Shown here: in pieces, positions 1,666-61,452 of the stretch | How positions within the stretch are numbered: the first letter of the stretch is position 1 | How the letters are laid out: each line of letters begins with the position of its first letter | Virus record (IMG/VR): IMGVR_UViG_3300026488_000025 | Location: 15,664-79,663 of that record | Source of the DNA: a virus | Length of the DNA: 64,000 nucleotides | Direction: 5' to 3' (one strand) | The notes under the pieces: generated by a model | The model's database searches: none | Told to the model about the DNA's origin: nothing | Seen by the model: the letters and a program-made list of their open reading frames with translations, nothing else | Position numbers and translations under genes: made by a program

Positions 1666-2625
1666 TTAAGCGTTCTTCATAGCATCAATTAGTTCTTGTG
1701 CTTTTTGTCTTTTTTGTAGTAGCTCTTCTGAAACTTCTTCAACGATGATTTCTTCTTTAATTTTTACCTTTTCTGTCACTGGTACAGATTTAGCGAATTT
1801 AAGTCTATTAAGCTCACCTTCAACCTTAGTGAATGATTCTGTTACATATTTCTCGTATTTCTTCATTTGTTCAGCAAGTTCATAAGTAGCTAATTCAGCG
1901 AATTCAGCAAGTACTTCTTCTTTGTCTTCGTGTGATAAATCACATAAGATAGATACGCCTCTTGCTTCTAAGATGTCTTTAAGTATAGAAAGATTTTGGA
2001 AATCGCTTACTTCCTCATTAACTTCTTTAGATTCATTAATAACTGTACCAGGTAATTCACACTCACCTACACAACCATTTTCTAAAATTTCGAATTCTTT
2101 TTCAGTTAAAACACCTTCAACGATTCCCATCATTTCTGCATTGTAATCTGATTGACCTTGGTCAGGAATAATATCGTATGTACTTAGTTTGAAATCTTCA
2201 ACTAAACCCGATGATGATACTTTACCAACACCACGACTTGATACAGACATTTTAATACCGGCATCAATTAATGTTTTTAGTTGGTTAGCTTTAGGATTAT
2301 CTAATAGGAATGCTTCTCCCATTACATATTTTCTGTCATCAGAAATATATAGTTTACTAATTTTAGCAACTGCTTCCATCATATCTACATTAGCTCTTGG
2401 TGGGTGATTGAGTTCCATTAAAGAATTACTAGCACCTTTACTTAATGTGTCTTGGTATTTCTTAACTTGGCTTTCCCAAATCGTTCTAGGGTAAACTCTA
2501 CCATTTTTGTTCTTCTCACCTATTGTACTGAAAATCCCTGAAATCTTGTATCTAGGAGTGCTAGATGATTCAGTTAATTCCTGTTCAAAAGTTACTTGGT
2601 TTTCTTCTTCGTAATATAATTTCAT
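1666..2625 (-). CDS. gp21: Prohead core protease
   Basis: ISGIF, NKNGRVYP, ELNHP, VSSRGVG motifs. Confidence 0.93.
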   Translation of the reverse strand: MKLYYEEENQVTFEQELTESSSTPRYKISGIFSTIGEKNKNGRVYPRTIWESQVKKYQDTLSKGASNSLMELNHPPRANVDMMEAVAKISKLYISDDRKYVMGEAFLLDNPKANQLKTLIDAGIKMSVSSRGVGKVSSSGLVEDFKLSTYDIIPDQGQSDYNAEMMGIVEGVLTEKEFEILENGCVGECELPGTVINESKEVNEEVSDFQNLSILKDILEARGVSILCDLSHEDKEEVLAEFAELATYELAEQMKKYEKYVTESFTKVEGELNRLKFAKSVPVTEKVKIKEEIIVEEVSEELLQKRQKAQELIDAMKNA

Positions 2626-19915: not shown

Positions 19916-19968
19916 TTTATATCCTTTTATATTATATGTATTATAACATATAAGACCTTAAGGCCTTA

Positions 19969-24019: not shown

Positions 24020-24062
24020 TATCTTTCCTTTGTGTTGTATTATAACATTCTATTACTTAATT

Positions 24063-34179: not shown

Positions 34180-34524
34180 TTAGTATCTACTTGGTAAATC
34201 TTTTTGTGTCTTCATTGGCCCAAAATTAAAATATTTCTTACCACTGATTCTTACGGCGAAATAATAAGCATAAGCAGCAGTTCTATTCCAGATATTACTA
34301 AACCAATTCGATGCTCTTTCTGCATCTTCTAGCATAGCATCTAAAAATGATTTGTCTGCATATTTTCTGTCTTTGTTCTCACCACCTCTCCAGTAGTAAA
34401 AGTCGTGATGATTACAAGATGCCTTGAAGAAGAATTGTGGAGGCGTAAAACCCATTCCTTTACCACCACATCCGTTAGTGATTTCTGATTTTTGTTTATC
34501 TGTTAATTGACTGTATTTTAGCAT
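34180..34524 (-). CDS. Conserved phage protein, phospholipase A2-like/DUF1353-like
   Basis: NGCG..F..SCNHHDFYY..GG..DR..AD..F..M. Confidence 0.55.
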   Translation of the reverse strand: MLKYSQLTDKQKSEITNGCGGKGMGFTPPQFFFKASCNHHDFYYWRGGENKDRKYADKSFLDAMLEDAERASNWFSNIWNRTAAYAYYFAVRISGKKYFNFGPMKTQKDLPSRY

Positions 34525-34580
34525 ATTATATACCTCCGTATTTAGAGATATTTATAGAAGGAGTGTATTATTCTTAAAAA

Positions 34581-34846
34581 TTAGATTGAATCGTTTATGA
34601 TGTTTTCGTTTACTGGCATCTCCGAAGAGAACATTATCAATTTAATGCCGAAGGAACCATCTATTTGCTCATAGATAAGACACATTTATTTGATATGTGT
34701 ATCGAGTTATTCATTATCATAACTGAAAAGTTGAACTCATTTCGATGCTTATAGCATCAGGCTTTGTCTTCAACTCTGACTGTAACAGCTTCCATTTAAG
34801 TTTCCTTAATAATTAAGTTTGATGTATTCATAAACTGTAATTCTAA
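34581..34846 (-). ncRNA. Y-RNA-like ncRNA copy A (long), downstream of Ro60
   Basis: 5' TTAGA-ATTACA-GTTTATGA-ATACATC pairs with 3' TCATAAAC-GATTCAA-TCTAA; many internal hairpins; no ORF. Confidence 0.65.
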
Positions 34847-34998
34847 TTTTTAACAATAATAATTTAAAGAAGTATCATTATTTATAGACCCGATAAGAGG
34901 TCTATTTAAGTATTAAACTTTGCACTTACCAAATTTACGAAGCAATTTACAAAGTAAACAGTTCTTACGCATCCAATTTAACATAGTTCTCCTTTGTA

Positions 34999-36522
34999 TT
35001 AAAGTTTGATTGCTAGAATCTCATCGATTAATGCGTTTGAGTTTTTCCACATCTTCGGAATTACGCTTAACATCTTGTCCGAAAATCCTGAAACTTCCAG
35101 AATGTCATTAGATAATTTCATTGGTGTGTCACCGCCGTATCCTTGAAGATTCCAGAATAGTATCTTAACATTTGGGTTGATTTTTCTATATGCTGTTACT
35201 GCTTGTTTGAATGAACCTAAACTATTTGATTGCATATCTGTTAGGATAACAATTTTATCTACGAATGTTTTCGTTTTCACTAAATCTGCCATACTAGCAT
35301 TAAGATTTGTACCATATCCTTGTGTGTTTGTTCTCTTAATGAAATCGAACGGAGAACCACTGATATCCACTCTACGAGCATTGTCTGCCCATAAGTAACC
35401 TAATGTTTTGGTTTTATCTAATCCCACTAACATACTTGCCATTAAAATCTTACCGATTTTGAATGGGCTCATTTCTGTAGCACTTGAACCCCATCCTGAA
35501 CTACCCATTGAACCTGACTCATCTAGTAACAGTGCTACACTCTCACCTTCATCAACGATTGGGATATTCTTTGCTGAAATAATGAAACCTGCTTCGATAC
35601 CATCTAATAGTTCTTTTTGTAAGATTCTATCGAATGACATTGCTTCTACTGCTTCTGCTGCTTGAATAAATCTGAATGGAAGTACCATAGATTTACGACA
35701 CGCTTTCTCATTTCTGAATAACAATGAAAGTTTTGTAATCATTGCTTGTCTATCTGATTGGTCGAAACCATCAAGAGTTTCTAAGATATTTTTAAGGTTT
35801 TTAAGACCAGCCATATATCCTAGTTTTCCTTCGATTAACATACTGAAATAGTTTTGAGCTCTTGATTCACCAGTTGATTGAGCATTAACTGTTTGAGCAG
35901 TAACGATGTTCTCTAATGTTCCTTCGATTAATCTTTTGAATACATCTGTATCTTTTGCTTTACCTTTTGCTACAAGAGTTTCTGGATTTGGACGAGCAAG
36001 TTTAACGATGTCACGAAGTTTAATCTTACCTGAACCACCTGAATATTTCTTTAATTGATACTCATCAAATTTTGACTCAAATACATCTTTGATTGCTCTA
36101 CGAAGAGAATTTGGAATCATTTTACCTTTATTGCGAGTATTGAATAAAGCAACCATTTCCATAGCATCATCAGGTCTTACAATAGTTTTAGTAAGAGCAC
36201 TTCTTAAATAATCAGTACCTTTAACATTTTCTGCTAAGATAGCACCCATTATATGTGATACAGTTCTAAGATTACCTTCATTACGAACATAAACTGCTGC
36301 TTTTGCTGCGAACTCTGAATCGCCTTCAGCAACCATACCTATAATACGATTGATTCTATCTGATTCTGATTCGTAATATGAATTACCATTTACCATACTT
36401 GATAAGATAACTGAAGCTAACTCTTTACGAGCATCTTCATATTTGTATGCTACACCACCTGCTAAGTTTGTAGTTTCTGCTTTTTTCTCTGTTTGATTGA
36501 TTGTTTCGTTGAATTTTGCCAT
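34999..36522 (-). CDS. Ro60/Rsr-like TROVE + vWA RNA-binding protein (probable start 36522)
   Basis: TTNLAGG.AY, AVYVRNEGNLR, RPDD, FDEYQL.KY, A.LKNL.NI, VLPFRF, LLDESGSM, LTDMQ, GFSDK. Confidence 0.9.
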   Translation of the reverse strand: MAKFNETINQTEKKAETTNLAGGVAYKYEDARKELASVILSSMVNGNSYYESESDRINRIIGMVAEGDSEFAAKAAVYVRNEGNLRTVSHIMGAILAENVKGTDYLRSALTKTIVRPDDAMEMVALFNTRNKGKMIPNSLRRAIKDVFESKFDEYQLKKYSGGSGKIKLRDIVKLARPNPETLVAKGKAKDTDVFKRLIEGTLENIVTAQTVNAQSTGESRAQNYFSMLIEGKLGYMAGLKNLKNILETLDGFDQSDRQAMITKLSLLFRNEKACRKSMVLPFRFIQAAEAVEAMSFDRILQKELLDGIEAGFIISAKNIPIVDEGESVALLLDESGSMGSSGWGSSATEMSPFKIGKILMASMLVGLDKTKTLGYLWADNARRVDISGSPFDFIKRTNTQGYGTNLNASMADLVKTKTFVDKIVILTDMQSNSLGSFKQAVTAYRKINPNVKILFWNLQGYGGDTPMKLSNDILEVSGFSDKMLSVIPKMWKNSNALIDEILAIKL

Positions 36523-36603
36523 TGTGTTCTTTCCTTTGTTTAATTCTCTTACGAGATAATGTTGAAGTGTCCTCACTTCACCTTGTGTGTTCTTTTAGTA
36601 ATA

Positions 36604-36722
36604 TTAGATGAAATCTACCAAGATGTCATTCCCGAGGGAATGTTGTGGTTTGACCCACGAGTTCAAATTAAGAGTTTGTGTGCTGCAATCAGCGCGATGT
36701 AATCTGTGGTATGTAATTCTAA
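36604..36722 (-). ncRNA. Y-RNA-like ncRNA copy B
   Basis: TTAGA-ATTACA-TACCACAGA-TTACATC ... TCTTGGTA-GATTTCA-TCTAA; internal cloverleaf-like arms. Confidence 0.7.
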
Positions 36723-36744
36723 CATTACTAAAAGAACTTAGAAA

Positions 36745-36823
36745 TTTTTTGATGAAATCGAATTTGATGTATATGTGTAATTCAATTAATTTGCGATGTA
36801 ATCAAAATCTGTAATTCAAAAAA
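36745..36823 (-). ncRNA. Y-RNA-like ncRNA copy C (minimal)
   Basis: TTTTGA-ATTACA-GATTTTGA-TTACATC ... TCAAATTC-GATTTCA-TCAAAA. Confidence 0.65.
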
Positions 36824-36845
36824 TTTATAAGTTCTCTTTGTTCGT

Positions 36846-36873
36846 AGATGTATTATAACGAAAGTTTACTTAA
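36846..36873 (-). promoter_or_regulatory. Early promoter upstream of ncRNA C, ncRNA B and Ro60
   Basis: TTAAG-N9-CGTTATAATACATCTAC, a variant of the repeated early motif. Confidence 0.65.
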
Positions 36874-36947
36874 TTTTTGTGTAATTAAGTATTTTCTATC
36901 CATCTTTCTTTTCTTATATGTATTTATATAGACCAAAAGTCTATATA

Positions 36948-37703
36948 CTACTTATGTTTACACTTATCGAAATGCCATTGTTTCATTCCATTAATCTTTC
37001 CAGACTTATTGCAGTGAGGACAAGTAACTGTCTCTCTATTCTTAGCACTATCACTCATTTGTTTCTTAGTACAATCAGAGTGTTCTTTATCTAAGAATGG
37101 TTTAGAAGATATTATAACTCCATCAGCATATAGTTTTTTCATAAGTTTGGATTGTTTCTCTTTTCTTTCCTCTGAATGTTTCTTGCCTAGACAAGGATGA
37201 ATCTCTCTATTCTTAGCACTATCACTCATTTGTTTCTTAGTACAATCAGAGTGTATCTGATTGTACATAGGATTACCAACACCTGCTTTTACTTTTCTCA
37301 TCTTATTTTTTGTTTCTTCTGAATGAGATAGATTAAGATTATATGTTTCATAATGTTTTGAATTATACTTTCCTGACCCATTCATTCTTCTAATTGCTTT
37401 ACTCATCTTTCGTTCACCATAAGTATAAGAGATAGATTTGTAGTGTTTCCAAATAAGTATATGACATATAAAGTGCTCTCTAGCGGTAAGAAGAATGCTA
37501 TTCCATTTATTAGACCTTAGGTCACCATATTCAGGAAACATAGATTCGGGTAGAATATGGTGATTCTCAAAGTATATATACTCATCTTCAGATTTTTTAA
37601 GTTTCTTACGATTCTCATTTTGGGCATTGTTTATTATGCTAAGGTATAATTTGCCATATTTGGTTTCTTGTTTAAGGTGTGATTGTATTTCTGTAAGTGT
37701 CAT
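36948..37703 (-). CDS. HNH homing endonuclease with NUMOD3 repeats
   Basis: ENHHILPES.FP, LTAREHFICH, duplicated HSDCTKKQMSDSAKNRE, CPHC. Confidence 0.82.
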   Translation of the reverse strand: MTLTEIQSHLKQETKYGKLYLSIINNAQNENRKKLKKSEDEYIYFENHHILPESMFPEYGDLRSNKWNSILLTAREHFICHILIWKHYKSISYTYGERKMSKAIRRMNGSGKYNSKHYETYNLNLSHSEETKNKMRKVKAGVGNPMYNQIHSDCTKKQMSDSAKNREIHPCLGKKHSEERKEKQSKLMKKLYADGVIISSKPFLDKEHSDCTKKQMSDSAKNRETVTCPHCNKSGKINGMKQWHFDKCKHK

Positions 37704-51954: not shown

Positions 51955-52062
51955 AGAGATAAAAACGAAAAAGATGTAATTGGTCACCAGACTTCAATAG
52001 CCCGAATCGAACGGGCACTTCGTTTTCCAAATAAGCGATGTAATCTTTTTCTATAATTCTCT
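51955..52062 (-). ncRNA. Y-RNA-like ncRNA copy D with tRNA-like D and T arms
   Basis: AGAGA-ATTATA-GAAAAAGA-TTACATC ... TCTTTTTC-GTTTTTA-TCTCT; internal GCCCG-TTCGATT-CGGGC T-arm. Confidence 0.7.
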
Positions 52063-52306: not shown

Positions 52307-52334
52307 TCTCAACACTATATATGTTATTTATAAA

Positions 52335-61162: not shown

Positions 61163-61321
61163 AAAGTCTATATACTCTCTTATTGTTTGTAGATGTATTA
61201 TAACATAGTGTTACTTAATTTCTACTTAACTTAGAAAAGAATTTAAACCTTTTAAAGTCTATATACTCTCTTTCGTTTTGTAGATGTATTATAACATAGT
61301 GTTACTTAATTTCTACTTAAC
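61163..61321 (-). repeat. Tandem duplicated early promoter unit upstream of the tRNA cluster
   Basis: TGTAGATGTATTATAACATAGTGTTACTTAATTTCTACTTAAC occurs twice, each preceded by AAAGTCTATATACTCTC; a third promoter near 61390-61416. Confidence 0.75.
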
Positions 61322-61452
61322 CTTGTGATTTCTTTTCAGAAAAACATTTAAAGACTCCGATGAGTTCTTAAATAGTCTTCCTCTTTATACGGTGTATTAT
61401 AACATACAGTTACTTAAAATAAGATTGAAAATATATCGAATTTATCTGTCTA

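What the first reader, a model, noticed from the sequence alone, without database searches (positions are those of the whole stretch)
34581..36873. Phage Ro60 operon with a family of covarying Y-RNA-like ncRNAs
Seen: an early promoter (about 36850) precedes two ORF-free elements (36745-36823, 36604-36722), the TROVE/vWA gene, and a third element (34581-34846). A fourth copy sits 15 kb away among tRNAs (51955-52062). All share outer stem-GA / ATTAYA / 8-9 nt inner stem ending GA / (T/A)TACATC ... ACA / complementary inner stem / GATTTCA-like / TC-outer stem. The inner stem covaries: GTTTATGA/TCATAAAC, TACCACAGA/TCTTGGTA, GATTTTGA/TCAAATTC, GAAAAAGA/TCTTTTTC. The enclosed cargo ranges from about 30 to over 200 nt. 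Established: Ro60 binds the terminal stem of Y RNAs, whose other module recruits effectors such as PNPase. Inference: these are Y RNAs with an unfamiliar Ro-binding internal loop and interchangeable effector modules, forming a phage-encoded Ro60 RNP system.
Basis: partly seen in the sequence, partly recalled or inferred. Interest (0 to 1): 0.92.

Follow-up and report, generated by a model that had tools for sequence, protein, structure and literature searches.

The report
Phage Ro60 gene with diverged Y RNAs
A large T4-like phage carries a gene for the ring-shaped RNA-binding protein Ro60 and four small RNA genes that share one conserved two-helix "handle" around very different inserts; they are diverged relatives of bacterial Y RNAs (YrlA/YrlB) that the standard RNA catalogue misses, and the same family recurs beside related Ro60 genes in dozens of phage contigs.

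Summary
Four copies on the minus strand (E1-E3 flanking the TROVE/Ro60 gene, E4 in a tRNA cluster) share outer helix, conserved internal loop, 8-bp inner helix, UUACAUC(G), insert and the return strands. A covariance model built from nine short copies finds the family only beside Ro60 genes of this clade: 58 matches in 80 metagenome TROVE loci, all on the Ro60 strand. A separate descriptor scan gives 71 plus-strand and 0 minus-strand hits, with up to 7 tandem copies. Nothing significant appears in 1.5 Mb of decoy DNA, T4 or KVP40. Covariation is strong: 95% of cells paired against 61% when shuffled, and 14 of 15 pairs change on both sides.

The copies in relatives that carry an 83-98-nt insert give full-length but sub-threshold Rfam YrlA matches (33-42 bits; cut-off 69). 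Their two helices map onto YrlA stems 1 and 2, and the GAA core of the GNCGAA motif is kept.

So this is a diverged, multiplied phage branch of YrlA/YrlB-type Y RNAs, not a wholly unfamiliar handle. Ro60 binding and function remain inferred.

This scan met the same UUACAUC handle once before on another phage genome (e1-5957945), and comparable Ro60-like arrays with other handles on many others. Novelty: new variant of a known kind.

The parts
36847..36873 (-). Promoter-like motif (TTAAGTAA..N..GTTATAATACATC) about 20 nt upstream of E1
   Evidence: The exact 12-mer TTATAATACATC occurs three times in the window: here and twice upstream of the main tRNA cluster (61192, 61283). Six aligned sites share 19 invariant columns. 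The generic sigma-70 scan did not flag it.
36742..36826 (-). E1: short-insert Y-like RNA (YrlB-like). 11-bp outer helix, AUUACA / GAUUUCA loop, 8-bp inner helix, UUACAUC, 27-nt apical loop
   Evidence: R1 67 bits, E 6e-11
36596..36730 (-). E2: Y-like RNA with a 72-nt insert of four small hairpins. 13-bp outer helix; inner helix with a bulged C
   Evidence: Fold -36.6 kcal/mol, z -5.5; R1 44.5 bits. No Rfam tRNA or YrlA match at E<=10.
34999..36522 (-). Ro60 (TROVE + vWA/MIDAS) gene, 507 aa, starting MAKFNETI
   Evidence: Pfam TROVE 1.4e-20. DxSxS is invariant in alignment A1. PDB profile hit to phiLo Ro60, 3.6e-20. AF2 pLDDT 82. The 13 Foldseek hits at E<=0.001 are all Ro60 structures, TM 0.54-0.71.
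34879..34886 (-). T4-type late-promoter-like TATAAATA, 26 nt upstream of E3
   Evidence: The motif is enriched in the window (31 found, 14.3 expected; 23 on the minus strand). Its function is inferred.
34574..34853 (-). E3: long-insert Y-like RNA (12-bp outer helix, 220-nt multi-hairpin insert), downstream of Ro60
   Evidence: Fold z -3.5, closed by both helices; descriptor hit. The insert resembles no other long insert.
51955..52062 (-). E4: Y-like RNA with a T-arm plus mini D-arm ('tRNA elbow') insert, between tRNA-Thr and tRNA-Arg
   Evidence: R1 55.8 bits. The same 62-67-nt insert class lies in the Ro60-adjacent arrays of L170, L174, L178, L179, L202 and L236.

Best explanation
E1-E4 are stable small RNAs of one phage-specific branch of the YrlA/YrlB Y-RNA family, and are the partner RNAs of the phage's own Ro60.

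Each RNA is closed by a constant handle:
- an outer helix ending G-C, A-U;
- a bulged invariant A;
- one U:A pair that is sometimes C:G;
- a conserved 4x6 loop (UANA / GNUUUY);
- an 8-bp inner helix of free sequence;
- an asymmetric loop, UUACAUCG on the 5' side and A-rich on the 3' side.

Shown: the handle is conserved, covaries, is strand-specific, and travels with this Ro60 clade. It also aligns to YrlA stems 1 and 2.

Inferred:
- Ro60 docks on the handle. The fixed 8-bp spacing between two conserved loops suggests a single protein surface.
- The variable insert recruits or decoys other factors. The inserts are a short loop, a tRNA elbow, a full permuted tRNA mimic in relatives, or a 130-300-nt scaffold.
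- The RNAs are cut from the Ro60 operon transcript or from tRNA-cluster transcripts.
- The particle redirects host RNA decay or tRNA-handling enzymes during infection, as described for Rsr-Y RNA-PNPase and for Thermus phage phiLo.
For: - Structure: 92.5% of cells pair against 61% when shuffled (score 0.791 vs 0.188, 0/500). On 54 distinct sequences from metagenome loci (two loci repeat IMG/VR contigs already used), 95.2% pair against 60.7% (0.895 vs 0.224), slid controls reach at most 0.21, and 14 of 15 pairs change on both sides.
- Loop pair: 5' position 2 with 3' position 7 is U:A 75 times and C:G 8 times, with no exception.
- RNA strand: 25 G-U against 6 A-C pairs.
- Association: R1 gives 58 of 58 matches on the Ro60 strand in 80 TROVE loci. 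The descriptor gives 71 plus-strand and 0 minus-strand hits, in arrays of up to 7.
- Clade limit: there are no hits where TROVE is 33% identical or less.
- Distant copies lie in tRNA clusters on the tRNA strand: this window, phiKT1024, G005 and G007.
- Specificity: the best decoy scores are 24-26 bits in 1.5 Mb. T4 and KVP40 have none; Va1 has one.
- IMG/VR sequence pattern: the 6 hits with stems all lie on TROVE contigs or on a 10-kb fragment; the 16 hits without stems do not.
- Homology: RF02553 matches of 26-42 bits, nearly all full length, show T-arm, AS then D-arm order. In L174 420-556 both helices map to YrlA stems 1 and 2.
- The protein is Ro60.
- Published precedent: Y RNAs lie upstream of rsr and are processed from one precursor (PMC4201824); phage phiLo Ro60 binds two Yrl RNAs and PNPase (PMC12135203).
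Against: - There is no transcript, end-mapping or binding datum.
- The window's own four copies give no Rfam YrlA match at all.
- The strict GNCGAAN0-1G motif is absent; only GAA is kept.
- About a third of clade Ro60 loci that have upstream sequence show no adjacent copy. In G005 the copies lie about 100 kb from Ro60.
- None of the five records tested encodes RtcB, including the complete phiKT1024 genome. The effector is therefore unknown.
- The covariation alignments were fitted to the model, which favours pairing.
Confidence: 0.8

Rival explanations
1. The handle is mainly a processing signal. A double-strand-specific or phage endonuclease (RNase III type) would cut the two-helix stalk to release assorted small RNAs from polycistronic transcripts. 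Ro60 would then be only a neighbour, or would act on the inserts.
For: The elements lie in tandem within operon and tRNA-cluster transcripts. About two helical turns interrupted by conserved loops resembles T7 RNase III sites and rRNA processing stalks (from my own knowledge).
Against: The handle aligns to the YrlA closing stems that carry the proposed Rsr site. It occurs only in genomes with this Ro60 clade, and is absent from tRNA-rich T4 and KVP40. Host RNase III sites would not track one phage protein clade.
Confidence: 0.1
2. They are cis-acting leader elements through which Ro60 autoregulates its own mRNA, not trans-acting RNAs.
For: Most copies lie in the 5' leader of the Ro60 gene on the same strand.
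Against: Some copies lie 15-100 kb away inside tRNA clusters, and some lie downstream of Ro60 (E3; L178, L202). Arrays of up to 7 copies with tRNA-mimic inserts are not expected of a leader.
Confidence: 0.05
3. They are DNA-level elements: miniature inverted-repeat mobile elements, or recombination or homing sites with nested inverted repeats.
For: Nested inverted repeats flank variable 'cargo'. Homing endonuclease genes lie nearby, and one interrupts the TROVE gene in L118.
Against: Orientation bias relative to Ro60 is 71:0. G-U pairs outnumber A-C pairs. The unpaired loops are conserved while the stems covary. tRNA-like inserts match YrlA.
Confidence: 0.03

Closest known systems
YrlA / YrlB Y RNAs of bacteria and mycobacteriophages (Rfam RF02553; Chen et al. 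2014, PMC4201824)
   Same: They are encoded next to Ro60 on the same strand, often several in a row. The closing architecture is two helices with an internal loop. The GAA core sits at the end of the first helix. Relatives carry T-arm, AS stem and D-arm in the permuted order, and short-insert copies parallel YrlB.
   Different: The loop sequences are clade-specific (AUUAMA / GAUUUYA / UUACAUCG). The full GNCGAAN0-1G motif is absent. Scores are 26-42 bits against a cut-off of 69, and the window's copies give no match. There are up to 7 copies per array, and extra copies sit inside tRNA clusters. Insert classes not described for YrlA occur: elbow-only (62-67 nt) and 130-300-nt scaffolds.
Thermus phage phiLo Ro60 with Yrl1/Yrl2 (PMC12135203; PDB 9KOP, 9L5Y)
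   Same: A phage-encoded Ro60 with phage Y-like RNAs upstream. It is the best structural and sequence match of the window protein.
   Different: The proteins are about 19% identical. The phiLo RNAs were picked by a CGAA motif in a large bulge. There are two RNAs, not a multi-class family.
Deinococcus Yrn1 and metazoan Y RNAs (RF00019)
   Same: A terminal stem with bulges is the Ro60 site, and a variable module acts as the effector part (PMC4201824).
   Different: There is no sequence or model match. The conserved helix sequence differs.
Dictyostelium Class I RNAs (PMC7919456)
   Same: A short closing stem is followed by a conserved motif containing UUACAG, with a variable remainder.
   Different: Of the positions that paper calls nearly invariant (3, 6, 9-11), only the U at position 3 is conserved here; the position matching its invariant C is variable here, and positions 9-11 fall in the free-sequence inner helix. 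Not a member.

Membership tests
YrlA (Rfam RF02553) | Score at or above the Rfam gathering cut-off (69 bits) | tested here: not met
   The window copies give no match at E<=10. Relatives score 26-42 bits.
YrlA (Rfam RF02553) | Within 4 kb of a Ro60 gene on the same strand (criterion of Chen et al. 2014) | tested here: met
   E1, E2 and E3 meet it. E4 lies 15 kb away. All 58 CM matches in the metagenome loci are on the Ro60 strand.
YrlA (Rfam RF02553) | GNCGAAN0-1G motif near the 5' end | tested here: not met
   Only G-A-A is kept, at 87%, 70% and 100% in 54 sequences. It aligns to the model's CGAA.
YrlA (Rfam RF02553) | tRNA-like domain with T-arm, AS stem and D-arm in permuted order | tested here: inconclusive
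   Met in relatives (L115, L116, L137, L174, L236). In the window, only E4 has a T-arm plus a mini D-arm, without the AS stem. E1 and E3 have none, and E2 is unconvincing.
YrlA (Rfam RF02553) | Closing stem 1 - internal loop - stem 2 | tested here: met
   L174 420-556 aligns along the full model length with both helices paired. Covariation supports both helices.
Y RNA in general | Bound by Ro60 | not testable with these tools
   Only co-occurrence was shown.
Ro60 / TROVE protein | TROVE domain over the Pfam cut-off | tested here: met
   74.4 bits against a cut-off of 23.
Ro60 / TROVE protein | C-terminal vWA domain with the MIDAS DxSxS motif | tested here: met
   D334, S336, S338, T405 and D429 are invariant in 36 homologues. 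vWA domains appear among the Foldseek hits.
Ro60 / TROVE protein | HEAT-repeat ring plus vWA fold as in solved Ro60 structures | tested here: met
   The 13 Foldseek hits at E<=0.001 are all Ro60 (9KOP, 9L5Y, 2NVO, 1YVP, 2I91 and others), E 2.5e-15 to 1e-9.
Metazoan Y RNA (RF00019) | Rfam model match | tested here: not met

The most novel reading that the evidence does not exclude
The handle is a portable Ro60-docking tag. It would let these phages load a library of unrelated RNA modules onto one ring protein: tRNA elbows, full tRNA mimics, a possible anticodon-loop look-alike in E2, and 130-300-nt scaffolds. The result would be a multiplexed particle that decoys or recruits host tRNA-targeting nucleases, tRNA-processing enzymes or exonucleases in the phage-host contest over RNA.
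Probability: 0.3. Interest if true: 0.8.

Novelty: new variant of a known kind. Interest (0 to 1): 0.55.

Why it matters
Ro60 with Y RNA is a conserved but poorly understood RNA-surveillance particle. Its phage versions have only begun to be studied.

This family gives a sharply defined handle of about 55 nt, including an invariant bulged A, one covarying pair and a fixed 8-bp spacer. These features make precise, testable predictions for Ro60 recognition.

The work also shows that Rfam-based annotation misses Y RNAs in a whole clade of large T4-like phages. That clade includes cultured Vibrio phages (Va1, phiKT1024, pv27, phiTY18), in which experiments are feasible.

The range of inserts suggests that Y RNAs act as modular adaptors far more widely than the two-RNA bacterial paradigm implies.

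Tried and rejected
- A single-protein scan of IMG/VR found no relatives. The alignment-based scan did.
- The first, loose half-pattern scan of IMG/VR returned over 100 chance hits with no stems. These were reused as decoys.
- MAFFT could not align copies with unequal inserts, so the model was seeded from short-insert copies only. It therefore misses inserts longer than about 105 nt (the longest it matched); a Python descriptor covered those.
- The generic promoter and terminator scan was uninformative.
- Long inserts share no detectable sequence across lineages.
- No protein neighbour other than Ro60 is conserved across loci.
- RtcB is absent from five records.
- Rfam finds no YrlA above cut-off beside more distant phage TROVE genes either, so that search gave no positive control.
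- The resemblance to Class I RNAs was rejected on its invariant positions.

Full report
**What is in the window**

On the minus strand, a promoter-like motif at 36847-36873 is followed by these features:
- two ORF-free structured elements, E1 (36742-36826) and E2 (36596-36730);
- a 507-aa gene (34999-36522);
- a 23-codon Cys-rich ORF;
- a hairpin;
- a TATAAATA motif;
- a third element, E3 (34574-34853).

A fourth element, E4 (51955-52062), lies between tRNA-Thr and tRNA-Arg.

All four share this layout:
- an outer helix ending GA;
- AUUAYA;
- an 8-9-nt inner strand ending GA;
- WUACAUC;
- the insert;
- the inner return strand beginning UC;
- GWUUYHA;
- the outer return strand beginning UC.

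The half-pattern occurs 5 times against 0.15 expected. MFE folds close every copy with both helices.

**The protein**

The protein is a genuine Ro60.
- Pfam TROVE gives 1.4e-20.
- A 36-sequence alignment keeps the MIDAS residues invariant.
- A profile search of PDB sequences hits Thermus phage phiLo Ro60 at 3.6e-20 and Xenopus Ro60 at 5e-8.
- An AlphaFold model (pLDDT 82) matches only Ro60 structures at the top of the list: 9KOP, 9L5Y, 2NVO and 1YVP, with E down to 2.5e-15.

Neighbouring genes (gp32, a gp23-like gene, Dda helicase, homing endonucleases) mark a T4-like phage. The record is 33% complete. The same protein sits on a 331-kb contig.

**The RNA family elsewhere**

Vibrio phage phiKT1024 has a Ro60 that is 52% identical. 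It carries the same two-helix closure, with different helix sequences, just after a promoter upstream of its Ro60 gene.

IMG/VR contigs with clade Ro60 genes carry 1-5 copies in tandem on the Ro60 strand.

I built covariance model R1 from nine short-insert copies. Its results:
- It scores family members at 34-81 bits.
- It finds nothing else in the window's record.
- It reaches at most 24-26 bits in 914 kb of IMG/VR decoys and 575 kb of prokaryote decoys, all chosen because they match the sequence pattern.
- It finds nothing in T4 or KVP40, and one copy in Ro60-bearing Va1.

In 80 metagenome loci fetched with the Ro60 alignment, R1 gives 58 matches, all on the Ro60 strand. A separate Python descriptor that tolerates long inserts gives 71 plus-strand and 0 minus-strand hits in 30 loci. 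Arrays reach 7 copies and inserts run from 18 to 302 nt. No hit occurs where the TROVE protein is 33% identical or less.

A sequence-only scan of all IMG/VR gave 22 hits. The 6 with proper stems lie on contigs that hold Ro60 (4 contigs) or on a 10-kb fragment. The 16 without stems do not.

Copies far from Ro60 sit inside tRNA clusters on the tRNA strand. This holds in this window, phiKT1024, G005 and G007.

**Structure statistics**

| Set | Cells paired | Shuffled | Covariation score | Shuffled score |
|---|---|---|---|---|
| 17 IMG/VR and window copies | 92.5% | 61% | 0.791 | 0.188 |
| 54 distinct metagenome copies | 95.2% | 60.7% | 0.895 | 0.224 |

- In both sets, none of 500 shuffles reached the observed covariation score or the observed percentage of paired cells.
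- In the larger set, the slid controls scored at most 0.21, and 14 of 15 pairs changed on both sides.
- Both alignments are fitted to the model, which favours pairing. The descriptor scan and its 71:0 strand bias do not depend on the model.
- G-U pairs outnumber A-C pairs 25 to 6, so the structure is read on the Ro60 strand.

Within the '6x7 loop', 5' position 2 pairs with 3' position 7. The pair is U:A 75 times and C:G 8 times, with no exception, although single changes would have passed the filter. The invariant first A (54 of 54) is therefore a bulge.

The near-invariant bases are A-U-U-A-n-A, U-U-A-C-A-U-C-G, and G-n-U-U-U-y-A-U.

**Relation to known Y RNAs**

Rfam finds nothing but tRNAs in the window.

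In relatives, the copies with 83-98-nt inserts give RF02553 (YrlA) matches of 26-42 bits, nearly all spanning the full model (E about 1e-6 to 0.2). They have a canonical T-arm, a middle stem, then a D-arm, which is the permuted order that defines YrlA.

In the cleanest alignment (L174 420-556), the outer helix maps to YrlA stem 1 and the inner helix to stem 2. The handle's G-A-A falls on the CGAA of the GNCGAAN0-1G motif, which Chen et al. proposed as the Rsr site (PMC4201824). Other alignments slide by one helix, because the two junctions resemble each other.

The handle is thus a diverged YrlA closure, not a new invention. The short-insert copies parallel YrlB.

E4's insert (a T-arm plus GUC-UGGU-GAC) belongs to a conserved 62-67-nt 'elbow-only' class. 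In other phages this class sits within the Ro60-adjacent array. E2's insert has four hairpins but no model support for being tRNA-like. E3's 220-nt insert has no detectable relative.

**Mechanism**

The shown and inferred steps are set out under the best explanation. No RtcB gene is present in five records, including one complete genome. No other protein neighbour is conserved. Any effector is therefore probably supplied by the host, as with PNPase for Rsr and for phiLo Ro60 (PMC4201824, PMC12135203).

**Novelty**

- Phage Ro60 genes and phage Y RNAs are known: 22 phages in 2014, phiLo in 2025, and a note on jumbo phages in PMC7824862.
- I found no description of this handle, of arrays of up to seven copies, or of the insert classes. 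Rfam does not detect them.
- Earlier notes of this scan report the same UUACAUC handle on one other phage genome, and Ro60-like arrays with other handles on many others.

Noticed in passing
window 34913-34984 (-): A 23-codon ORF (MLNWMRKNCLLCKLLRKFGKCKV; four Cys, very basic) with a strong AAGGAG ribosome-binding site lies right after the Ro60 stop codon. Its conservation in other loci was not checked: the query typed was out of frame.
   Followed up: partly
window 36847-36873, 61192-61203, 61283-61294, 61391-61402, 19935-19946, 24034-24045 (-): A phage-specific promoter-like consensus, TTAAGTAAC..N..TGTTATAATACA, has 19 invariant columns in six copies. Three copies head the large tRNA cluster and one heads the Y-RNA/Ro60 unit.
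   Followed up: partly
window, 31 sites, e.g. 34549-34556, 34879-34886, 36921-36928, 52325-52332 (-): The T4 late-promoter motif TATAAATA is enriched twofold (31 found, 14.3 expected) and lies mostly on the coding strand. One site lies just before E3, and one lies before the small phospholipase-A2-like gene.
   Followed up: no
L114 1615-2003 (+); L117 2301-2682 (-); L112 7370-7488: Related phage contigs encode a tmRNA next to the Ro60 gene, with Rfam scores of 126 and 115 bits.
   Followed up: no
L118 1464-2003 and 3001-4101, with 2051-2290 (-): In one provirus-classed contig the Ro60 reading frame is split in two. A NUMOD-type homing endonuclease homologue lies between the halves on the other strand, which suggests an intron or a free-standing endonuclease insertion.
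   Followed up: no
window 34180-34524 (-): The 114-aa gene downstream of E3 has a sub-threshold match to prokaryotic phospholipase A2 (26.5 bits against a cut-off of 29.4). It is not conserved beside Ro60 in other loci.
   Followed up: partly
OM249648.1 94049-94127; MK387337.2 189742-189821: Cultured Vibrio phages phiKT1024 and Va1 carry copies of the handle RNA (51 and 50 bits). The phiKT1024 copy is unannotated in GenBank and lies directly before a tRNA-Thr gene.
   Followed up: partly
L227 1823-1886, L230 2693-2754, L228 67-123: More distant phage TROVE genes (about 30% identical) have partial tRNA-model matches just upstream and no YrlA match above cut-off. Other undetected Y-RNA branches are likely.
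   Followed up: no
window 36925-36950 and 34884-34905 (-): Two similar hairpins, each with stem arms reading TAGAC / GTCTA, bracket the Ro60 unit. Each overlaps a TATAAATA motif. They may be terminators.
   Followed up: no
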